A stretch of 64,000 nt of DNA, from positions 48,918,001-48,982,000 of the forward strand of contig OZ024752.1 of assembly GCA_964016885.1 (NCBI GenBank), read 5' to 3'. Positions 52,385 to 52,963 of the stretch are shown one piece after another. The first letter of the stretch is position 1, and each line of letters starts with the position of its first letter. Below the pieces are notes generated by a model. That model searched no databases. It worked only from the letters and a program-made list of their open reading frames with translations, and was not told the origin of the DNA. The translations under genes and the position numbers were made by a program. The DNA is from Eledone cirrhosa. Lineage: Eukaryota.

Positions 52385-52447
<63 letters not shown>

Positions 52448-52487
52448 GATATTAAACAAATGGAAACTATATTTATAAAACCATATT

Positions 52488-52553
52488 TATTTCGTTATAT
52501 ATATTTCAGGGATATCATATTAAAAATATGGTATGCCTTCCTCAGACAAAATA
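52488..52553 (-). ncRNA. Type I hammerhead motif (left arm)
   Basis: Reverse complement of 52774-52839. Confidence 0.75.
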
Positions 52554-52773
52554 CAATACATAAGCTGTTTTATAAATAATTTTTGACATACCTTTTAAAT
52601 AATGCAACTTCCATTTAAAAAGTTGATTTGGTAGTGAAACTGTTATGACAGTTATATAGAAAGAAAGACGAAGATGAGAAGAAGAAGATGAAGAGATGTA
52701 TGTAAATAAAAAGAAGAAGGTGCATTATTTAAAAGGTATGTCAAAAATTATTTATAAAACAGCTTATGTATTG

Positions 52774-52839
52774 TATTTTGTCTGAGGAAGGCATACCATA
52801 TTTTTAATATGATATCCCTGAAATATATATAACGAAATA
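52774..52839 (+). ncRNA. Type I hammerhead motif (right arm)
   Basis: tattttgt CTGAGGA agg...catat-tttta-atatg...cct GAAA tatata TA acgaaata; 8-bp stem I with one GU pair, palindromic stem III. Confidence 0.75.
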
Positions 52840-52963
52840 AATATGGTTTTATAAATATAGTTTCCATTTGTTTAATATCGTAAACCTACTCCAGAAACTG
52901 TTGAGTGCTTTTATATCAGTTATTATTTACTCGTTGTAACCCAACAATCTTAAATAAAACTTT

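What the first reader, a model, noticed from the sequence alone, without database searches (positions are those of the whole stretch)
52445..52960. Young fold-back insertion with two inverted hammerheads; its sister copy lacks the fold-back
Seen: apparently identical 162-bp arms around a 114-nt spacer, the left arm starting at (TA)n, each arm holding a hammerhead. A diverged relative at ~57905-58040 starts at TA repeats at nearly the same point but has no inverted arm. Inference: the inversion arises at integration, as for inverted partial pseudo-LTRs of PLEs, and is not a DNA-transposon TIR. Read-through would give long dsRNA that masks the ribozyme.
Basis: partly seen in the sequence, partly recalled or inferred. 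Interest (0 to 1): 0.7.

Follow-up and report, generated by a model that had tools for sequence, protein, structure and literature searches.

The report
Two-armed Penelope-type retroelement insertion
This hairpin is one of over two thousand similar insertions of a young Penelope-type jumping gene, not a DNA transposon; 104 of 105 two-armed copies examined pair one short end with one tailed end, so the enzyme likely copies its RNA twice, from two fixed start points, into both cut ends of the target DNA.

Summary
In detail: two identical 162-bp arms, each with a minimal type I hammerhead backed by covariation. It is a 522-bp truncated insertion of a young Hydra-clade Penelope-like element (PLE); an intact 741-aa RT plus GIY-YIG copy lies elsewhere in the genome. 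Corrections: the 114-nt 'spacer' is the left arm running on into the element's 3' UTR; the right arm carries an extra 84-nt tail; the 'sister' belongs to another family (79% identical) that also makes inverted copies. Outer ends are fixed and inner junctions vary, so the inversion forms at integration. Of 105 two-armed insertions, 104 pair a short end with a tailed end. Both arms share a lineage in 36 of 36, and tailed arms often stop at the short-end site. A simple fold-back cannot make this copy. Most likely both target strands prime reverse transcription at two fixed RNA sites, probably on one RNA (inferred). Inverted arms, one-sided tails and opposed hammerheads are published PLE features; I found no paper stating the pairing rule. 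This scan noted the same idea earlier on other DNA of this genome.

The parts
52388..52444 (.). (TA)n tract, left side of the target site
52445..52722 (-). Short-ended (S) arm, 278 nt: 3' UTR plus pseudo-LTR of the PLE, ending at the fixed S site at 52445
52445..52606 (-). Part of the S arm that is perfectly inverted against 52721-52882 (162 bp)
52484..52558 (-). Minimal type I hammerhead, left copy
52607..52720 (-). The 114-nt 'spacer': unpaired continuation of the S arm into the element's 3' UTR
52721..52722 (.). Head-to-head junction with a 2-nt microhomology; the junction 28-mer occurs once in the genome
52721..52966 (+). Tailed (L) arm, 246 nt, ending at the fixed L site at 52966
52769..52843 (+). 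Minimal type I hammerhead, right copy (core 52782-52788, GAAA 52820-52823, predicted cut after 52831)
52883..52966 (+). Tail between the S and L sites: 84 nt here, 87-88 in most copies (4-nt deletion near 52923)
52967..53021 (.). (AT)n tract, right side of the target site
57905..58078 (-). Solo S arm of a related family (family B), own hammerhead at about 57941-58017, TA repeats on both sides

Best explanation
This is a truncated two-armed insertion of a young Hydra-clade Penelope-like retroelement, and it was likely made when both cut strands of a (TA)n target primed reverse transcription at two fixed sites about 88 nt apart, probably on one RNA. Shown: the arms are the 3' end of an element with one RT plus GIY-YIG ORF; one arm ends at site S, the other at site L; they meet head-to-head at a unique junction with a 2-nt overlap. 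Inferred steps: (1) the endonuclease cuts both strands in (TA)n; (2) one 3' end primes at S, the other at L; (3) the L-primed RT must pass the S-primed hybrid, and sometimes stalls there; (4) both cDNAs stop, often 160-190 nt upstream of S, anneal at their 3' ends by a few bases and are filled in. If one arm fails, a solo copy like the 'sister' results. The hammerheads are likely passengers here: any read-through RNA would carry only one in sense, locked in a 162-bp duplex. My odds: PLE 0.98; inversion made at integration 0.93; priming on both strands 0.78; one RNA molecule 0.55-0.6.
For: Parent: the arm runs into an RT ORF and ends the 3' UTR behind a GIY-YIG domain. L272 holds an intact 741-aa ORF; its model (pLDDT 89) matches TERT best. 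Pairing: 57 of 57 two-armed insertions in a position-ordered sample of 73 regions are S+L; with the other sets, 104 of 105, one L+L, no S+S. Inner ends: all 52 mapped junctions differ; S reaches further in 24, L in 14, about equal in 14. L arms stop 0-20 nt past S in 6 of 52, against 1.05 expected (window chosen after seeing the data). Both arms share a lineage in 36 of 36: 1.7 differences against 8.6 when permuted, 1 discordant cell of 504, 5 private shared states. In vitro, a Poseidon PLE cuts and extends both strands and starts at two sites that bound the tail (PMC11167929).
Against: L262 is L+L. L188 has a family-B-type tail on a body of another subfamily, which points to two RNAs or later recombination. 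PMC11167929 saw no strand difference in start site in vitro, which alone would not give strict pairing. Same-lineage arms also follow from two RNAs of one locus, from fold-back or from gene conversion; the nearest other copy is about as close as the partner arm (mean 1.25 against 1.67). Identical junctions recur in 9 of the 30 best-hit loci, and the hot spot overlaps a hairpin in several subfamilies; both fit fold-back too. 22 of 52 junctions show a gap, not an overlap, partly from diverged references. No target duplication can be read in (TA)n. All mechanism is read from genomic structure.
Confidence: 0.6

Rival explanations
1. Dual priming: two RNAs, one on each half of the complex, with the S/L asymmetry set by the protein and target geometry rather than by a shared template.
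For: Chimeric L188; the L+L copy L262; both arms copy the same region, which two RNAs allow without strand displacement. The mechanism was proposed for L1 (PMC2837659).
Against: No between-lineage pair in 36; low-frequency variants shared by both arms within one young family; L arms pile up at the S site.
Confidence: 0.18
2. Self-priming fold-back: one cDNA starts at or beyond L, folds back and copies itself, and the endonuclease then trims one arm at S during integration (close to the views in PMC3846280 and PMC8557442).
For: 14 of 52 copies have near-equal arms; a hairpin lies at the hot spot in several subfamilies; junctions recur; arms share variants.
Against: In 24 of 52 copies, this one included, the short-ended arm holds the unpaired part, so trimming must be added. 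Four L arms end inside the tail with no overlap between arms. The hairpin is weak (-0.9 to -4.5 kcal/mol) in 4 of 10 reference copies. RT starts at both tail ends in vitro (PMC11167929).
Confidence: 0.14
3. The inverted arm arose after insertion, by repair or recombination between two nearby copies.
For: (TA)n tracts collect several insertions (L195, L281).
Against: Independent insertions would not pair S with L 104 times in 105, nor always head-to-head with same-lineage arms.
Confidence: 0.03
4. A MITE or other DNA transposon with terminal inverted repeats and a TA target duplication.
For: A size class of about 440-470 bp, TA flanks and some recurring junctions.
Against: Asymmetric ends, sizes from 144 to 4849 bp, continuity with an RT ORF, conserved hammerhead. 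One recurring junction sits on two haplotypes.
Confidence: 0.02
5. Assembly artefact (chimeric fold-back read).
For: No contig or read bridged the junction in four runs (the tool says a hole proves nothing).
Against: The ends fall on the family's two biological sites, the arms are asymmetric, and over a hundred other copies share the build.
Confidence: 0.02

Closest known systems
Hydra-clade PLEs (Craig et al. 2021, PMC8557442), e.g. Hydra-1_Obim and Penelope-13_HM
   Same: C-terminal GIY-YIG, DKT and RW(R/K) motifs, CxCx5C linker, (TA)n targets, 3' hammerhead. Penelope-13_HM is listed with a 5'-truncated inverted copy and a hammerhead on each strand.
   Different: The unit is about 3.7 kb (Hydra generally under 3 kb); the hammerhead differs from the one listed for Hydra-1_Obim; the tail is 84-96 nt against the usual 30-40; over two thousand tailed ends.
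EN+ PLE insertions with an inverted partial pLTR and a one-sided tail (PMC3846280, PMC8557442, PMC2377424)
   Same: Head-to-head arms of variable size, tail at one end, partial tandems.
   Different: Published as 'optional' or 'often at one end'; here counted as 104 of 105, with arm lineage and stop sites mapped.
Poseidon PAc in vitro system (Frangieh et al. 2024, PMC11167929)
   Same: Two internal RT start sites bounding the tail, AT-rich target, both strands cut and extended.
   Different: Different clade; the passages read do not link the two starts to inverted arms and report no strand preference.
Minimal hammerheads of metazoan PLEs (Cervera and De la Pena 2014, PMC4209133)
   Same: Long helix II, short palindromic helix III; pairs on opposite strands 100-700 bp apart were already seen in Schistosoma.
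   Different: Here tied to a defined parent and to fixed S and L ends; cleavage untested.
L1 twin priming and dual priming (as described in PMC2837659)
   Same: Both target strands prime cDNA; inverted fragments are joined inside.
   Different: L1 twin priming is occasional, uses the poly(A) tail plus a variable internal site and deletes sequence. Here both sites are fixed, the copied regions overlap, and two-armed products are the majority.

Membership tests
EN+ Penelope-like element | Single ORF with TERT-like RT and GIY-YIG endonuclease | tested here: met
   741-aa ORF in L272; best Foldseek hit TERT, E 7e-10. No Pfam hit; the GIY-YIG call rests on aligned motifs.
EN+ Penelope-like element | Pseudo-LTRs from partial tandems, direct or inverted | tested here: met
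   23 exact pLTR-ORF junctions; structures.
EN+ Penelope-like element | [quoted passage not shown] | tested here: met
   84-96 nt, 104 of 105 two-armed copies; longer than the published 30-40.
EN+ Penelope-like element | Frequent 5' truncation | tested here: met
   Sizes 144-4849 bp.
Hydra clade | DKT and RWK-type motifs, CxCx5C linker, CxxC and CxH near the end, no CCHH, C-terminal EN | tested here: met
   Motifs read against the definition; RWR here, RWK in five of seven aligned homologues. Absence of CCHH judged by eye.
Hydra clade | (TA)n targets and a canonical hammerhead | tested here: met
Hydra clade | Length generally under 3 kb | tested here: not met
   About 3.7 kb per unit, with a 3' UTR of about 1.3 kb. 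The paper gives this as a tendency, not a criterion.
Hydra clade | Placement in the RT tree with named Hydra members | not tested
   No tool returned named Hydra proteins as usable ids.
Naiad clade | N-terminal EN, DKA motif, no canonical hammerhead | tested here: not met
Type I minimal hammerhead | Conserved core with helices I, II and a short palindromic helix III | tested here: met
Type I minimal hammerhead | Self-cleavage | not testable with these tools
   needs in vitro transcription
MITE / TIR DNA transposon | Symmetric TIRs, uniform size, transposase parent | tested here: not met
MITE / TIR DNA transposon | Fixed target duplication | tested here: inconclusive
   Both ends lie in (TA)n.
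Non-LTR retrozyme | Tandem non-coding hammerhead monomers | tested here: not met
   The window copy is a fragment of a coding element; one tandem derivative exists at L267.

The most novel reading that the evidence does not exclude
PLE integration is built as coupled twin priming: one complex primes both target strands on a single RNA at two fixed sites, the downstream RT displaces the upstream cDNA, and the inverted pseudo-LTR with a one-sided tail is the normal product. This would tie the tail, the inverted arm and the MITE-like size class to one reaction, testable with an intact natural ORF.
Probability: 0.45. Interest if true: 0.75.

Novelty: new member of a known kind. Interest (0 to 1): 0.5.

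Why it matters
How PLEs make inverted repeats and tails is named as open in PMC8557442 and PMC11167929. A near-strict pairing of short and tailed ends, arms of one lineage and stalls at the short-end site give sharp predictions for an in vitro assay, and this family offers an intact ORF and thousands of young products. In practice, such insertions can be mistaken for MITEs, and each two-armed copy is a potential long dsRNA if read through.

Tried and rejected
Rfam: no hammerhead hit. Pfam: no family for the protein. PDB by sequence: nothing for the single protein, one weak retron RT hit with the profile. Apparent S+S pairs were S+L pairs of subfamilies whose tail begins like the TA flank. The first junction mapping failed because references held their own inversions; redone with single-arm references. 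The walk broke on several rows and was not used for counts. Expression, small RNAs and editing: no RNA holder listed. Junction in short reads: not bridged, inconclusive. Homodimer prediction of residues 1-480: no verdict. The pLTR region does not fold better than shuffles (z -1.1). The hot spot as the RNA 5' end is unresolved: direct pLTRs of ORF-bearing copies start at many places, 4 of the 22 regions examined at 166-200 nt from S. Naiad, my first guess, was rejected on domain order. Look-ups in the scan's notes by sequence and by nearness gave nothing.

Full report
OBSERVATION. The window holds a perfect inverted repeat, 52445-52606 against 52721-52882, 162 bp, with 114 nt between; shuffles give at most 24 nt. 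(TA)n tracts flank it at 52388-52444 and 52967-53021. Each arm has a type I minimal hammerhead pointing outward. Rfam misses it. Among 399 motif occurrences in the fetched, partly overlapping loci, 383 keep the core while position 7 takes all four bases. On 13 variants that I chose, 8 pairs change on both sides and none of 500 shuffles reaches that; related sequences inflate this control, but the slid controls are far lower.

THE FAMILY. The genome (3.0 Gb, 1796 contigs) gave 2473 candidates; the best are 96-98% identical, one 87% with an indel. Exact patterns give 3883 matches at the short-end motif (short ends plus tailed arms of some subfamilies), 757 tailed arms of this family, 2207 tailed ends and 23 junctions into the ORF. 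Copies end at two fixed points, S and L, 87-88 nt apart. In long copies the arm is the end of a 3' UTR behind an RT plus GIY-YIG ORF, and in tandem copies the L site runs on into the ORF start. L272 has an intact 741-aa ORF. The model has pLDDT 89 and its best structural match is TERT. The motifs fit the Hydra clade as defined in PMC8557442; no tree was built. Named homologues come from Argonauta and Octopus at 35-49% identity, so the host is likely a cephalopod; this is weak inference.

ANATOMY OF THIS COPY. The left arm follows the family to 52722 and the right arm starts at 52721. The 'spacer' is thus the left arm's longer reach, and the two arms overlap by 2 nt. The junction 28-mer occurs once in the genome. 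The left arm ends at S, the right at L. One cDNA folding back would put the unpaired part and the outermost end on the same arm; here they are on opposite arms.

PAIRING RULE. I fetched the 73 regions around the first 100 hits in order of position on contig C1. The script found 57 two-armed insertions, all S+L and head-to-head, 14 with one end, and 3 complex. By eye, two of the complex ones are also S+L; the third (L219) runs into the ORF and was left out; at least two of the 14 have a second arm broken by other DNA. L179 and L181 look like one event duplicated. This sample cannot see L+L pairs of the window's own family. The tail-anchored set can: 25 of 30 loci have an S partner, one more is counted with the ORF set, and 4 showed no partner. 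Family B gave 10 two-armed loci of 29, all S+L. ORF-bearing copies gave 8 S+L and 1 L+L among 21 regions, and L281 holds two more S+L. Total 104 of 105. In the list of the first 100 tailed ends I saw no head-to-head pair within 5 kb (read by eye).

INNER ENDS. For 52 insertions (51 from C1 plus the window; L179, L181, L194, L214, L226, L236 dropped as unmappable) all junctions differ. S reaches further in 24, L in 14, and 14 are about equal. 30 junctions show 0-6 nt of overlap; 22 show a gap, many from diverged references. 27 of 104 arm ends lie 160-190 nt upstream of S, against 2 in each neighbouring window. This gives a MITE-like class of 440-470 bp. A hairpin overlaps the hot spot in 6 of 10 reference copies. 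Six L arms stop 0-20 nt past S, expected 1.05, P about 0.001 for a window chosen afterwards. In the best-hit set, biased to this class, identical junctions recur in 9 of 30 loci, one on a second haplotype.

ONE TEMPLATE OR TWO. In 36 insertions with both arms long enough, the arms differ at 1.7 of about 150 sites against 8.6 when permuted; 1 of 504 diagnostic cells is discordant; five insertions share a state seen in no other. This shows one source lineage, not one molecule. L188 goes against it: its tail is of family-B type on another body, and the other three matches to that stretch are plain B-type copies.

THE SISTER. It belongs to family B (2769 candidates), which has its own S and L ends 93-96 nt apart and its own inverted copies. 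It is a solo S arm that stops at the hot-spot distance and joins TA repeats. It is not a before-state of the window copy.

MECHANISM. Shown in vitro for another clade: both strands are cut and extended, RT starts at two internal sites bounding the tail, and hammerhead cleavage is not needed (PMC11167929). Inferred here: the two target ends take S and L respectively, probably on one RNA, and the cDNA ends anneal. Rivals are dual priming and fold-back with trimming. A read-through transcript is predicted to form a 162-bp duplex (-267 kcal/mol) with the antisense arm made first in either direction, so the one sense hammerhead would be masked. No RNA data were available.

WHAT IS KNOWN. Inverted truncated copies and one-sided tails: PMC8557442 (passages, section 11, supplement part 2 of 59 and one supplement search), PMC3846280 (passages, Discussion), PMC2377424 (passages). 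Opposed hammerheads: PMC4209133 (passages, section 5). PMC11167929: parts 1-2 of 4 and passages; its supplements were not read and may treat inverted copies. L1 twin and dual priming: PMC2837659 (passages). PMC13282606 and bioRxiv 10.64898/2026.07.22.740005: passages only, supplements unseen. Seven searches found no paper stating the S+L rule or twin priming for PLEs; older subscription papers on Penelope are outside the library. Unchecked notes of this scan give the same idea for non-coding elements of this genome; my reading was noted before that look-up.

VERDICT. A real, ordinary-looking product of a new, young Hydra-type PLE family. The architecture is known. The counted pairing rule and an intact parent make an open mechanistic question testable. 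Interest 0.5.

Noticed in passing
L267 (G000:C2, about 45.81 Mb): A 456-nt unit (hammerhead, tail, first 200 nt or so of the ORF) repeated head-to-tail about 2.4 times and ending at the L site: a retrozyme-like derivative of the coding family, sitting inside an unrelated inverted repeat.
   Followed up: partly
L188 / L282 (G000:C1, about 43.73 Mb): Chimeric insertion: a family-B-type tail on an arm of another subfamily, switching near the S site.
   Followed up: yes
L262 (G000:C1, about 85.48 Mb): The one two-armed insertion with tails at both ends.
   Followed up: partly
L031, L032, L038, L262-L280: A poly-C run in the middle of the ORF varies in length and shifts the frame in many copies; mutation hot spot or homopolymer error.
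   Followed up: no
L181, L204, L221: Three long arms break or stop at nearly the same ORF position (about 752-758 of the reference copy), a possible second stop site.
   Followed up: no
window 53255-53480: Another high-copy repeat between TA tracts, with a degraded hammerhead-like motif on the minus strand at about 53445-53470.
   Followed up: partly
window 53022-53220: A further high-copy repeat directly right of the insertion's TA tract (depth); not identified.
   Followed up: no
L278-L280 (G000:C10, 26.07-26.21 Mb): Three full-length copies with the same 5' start within 150 kb, likely a segmental duplication.
   Followed up: no
window 13030-13652, 25070-25528, 37698-38999: Young tandem arrays of 44, 91 and 72 nt units, 92-99% identical.
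   Followed up: no
window 39708-39853: A microsatellite-rich palindrome that scores against miRNA models below threshold.
   Followed up: no
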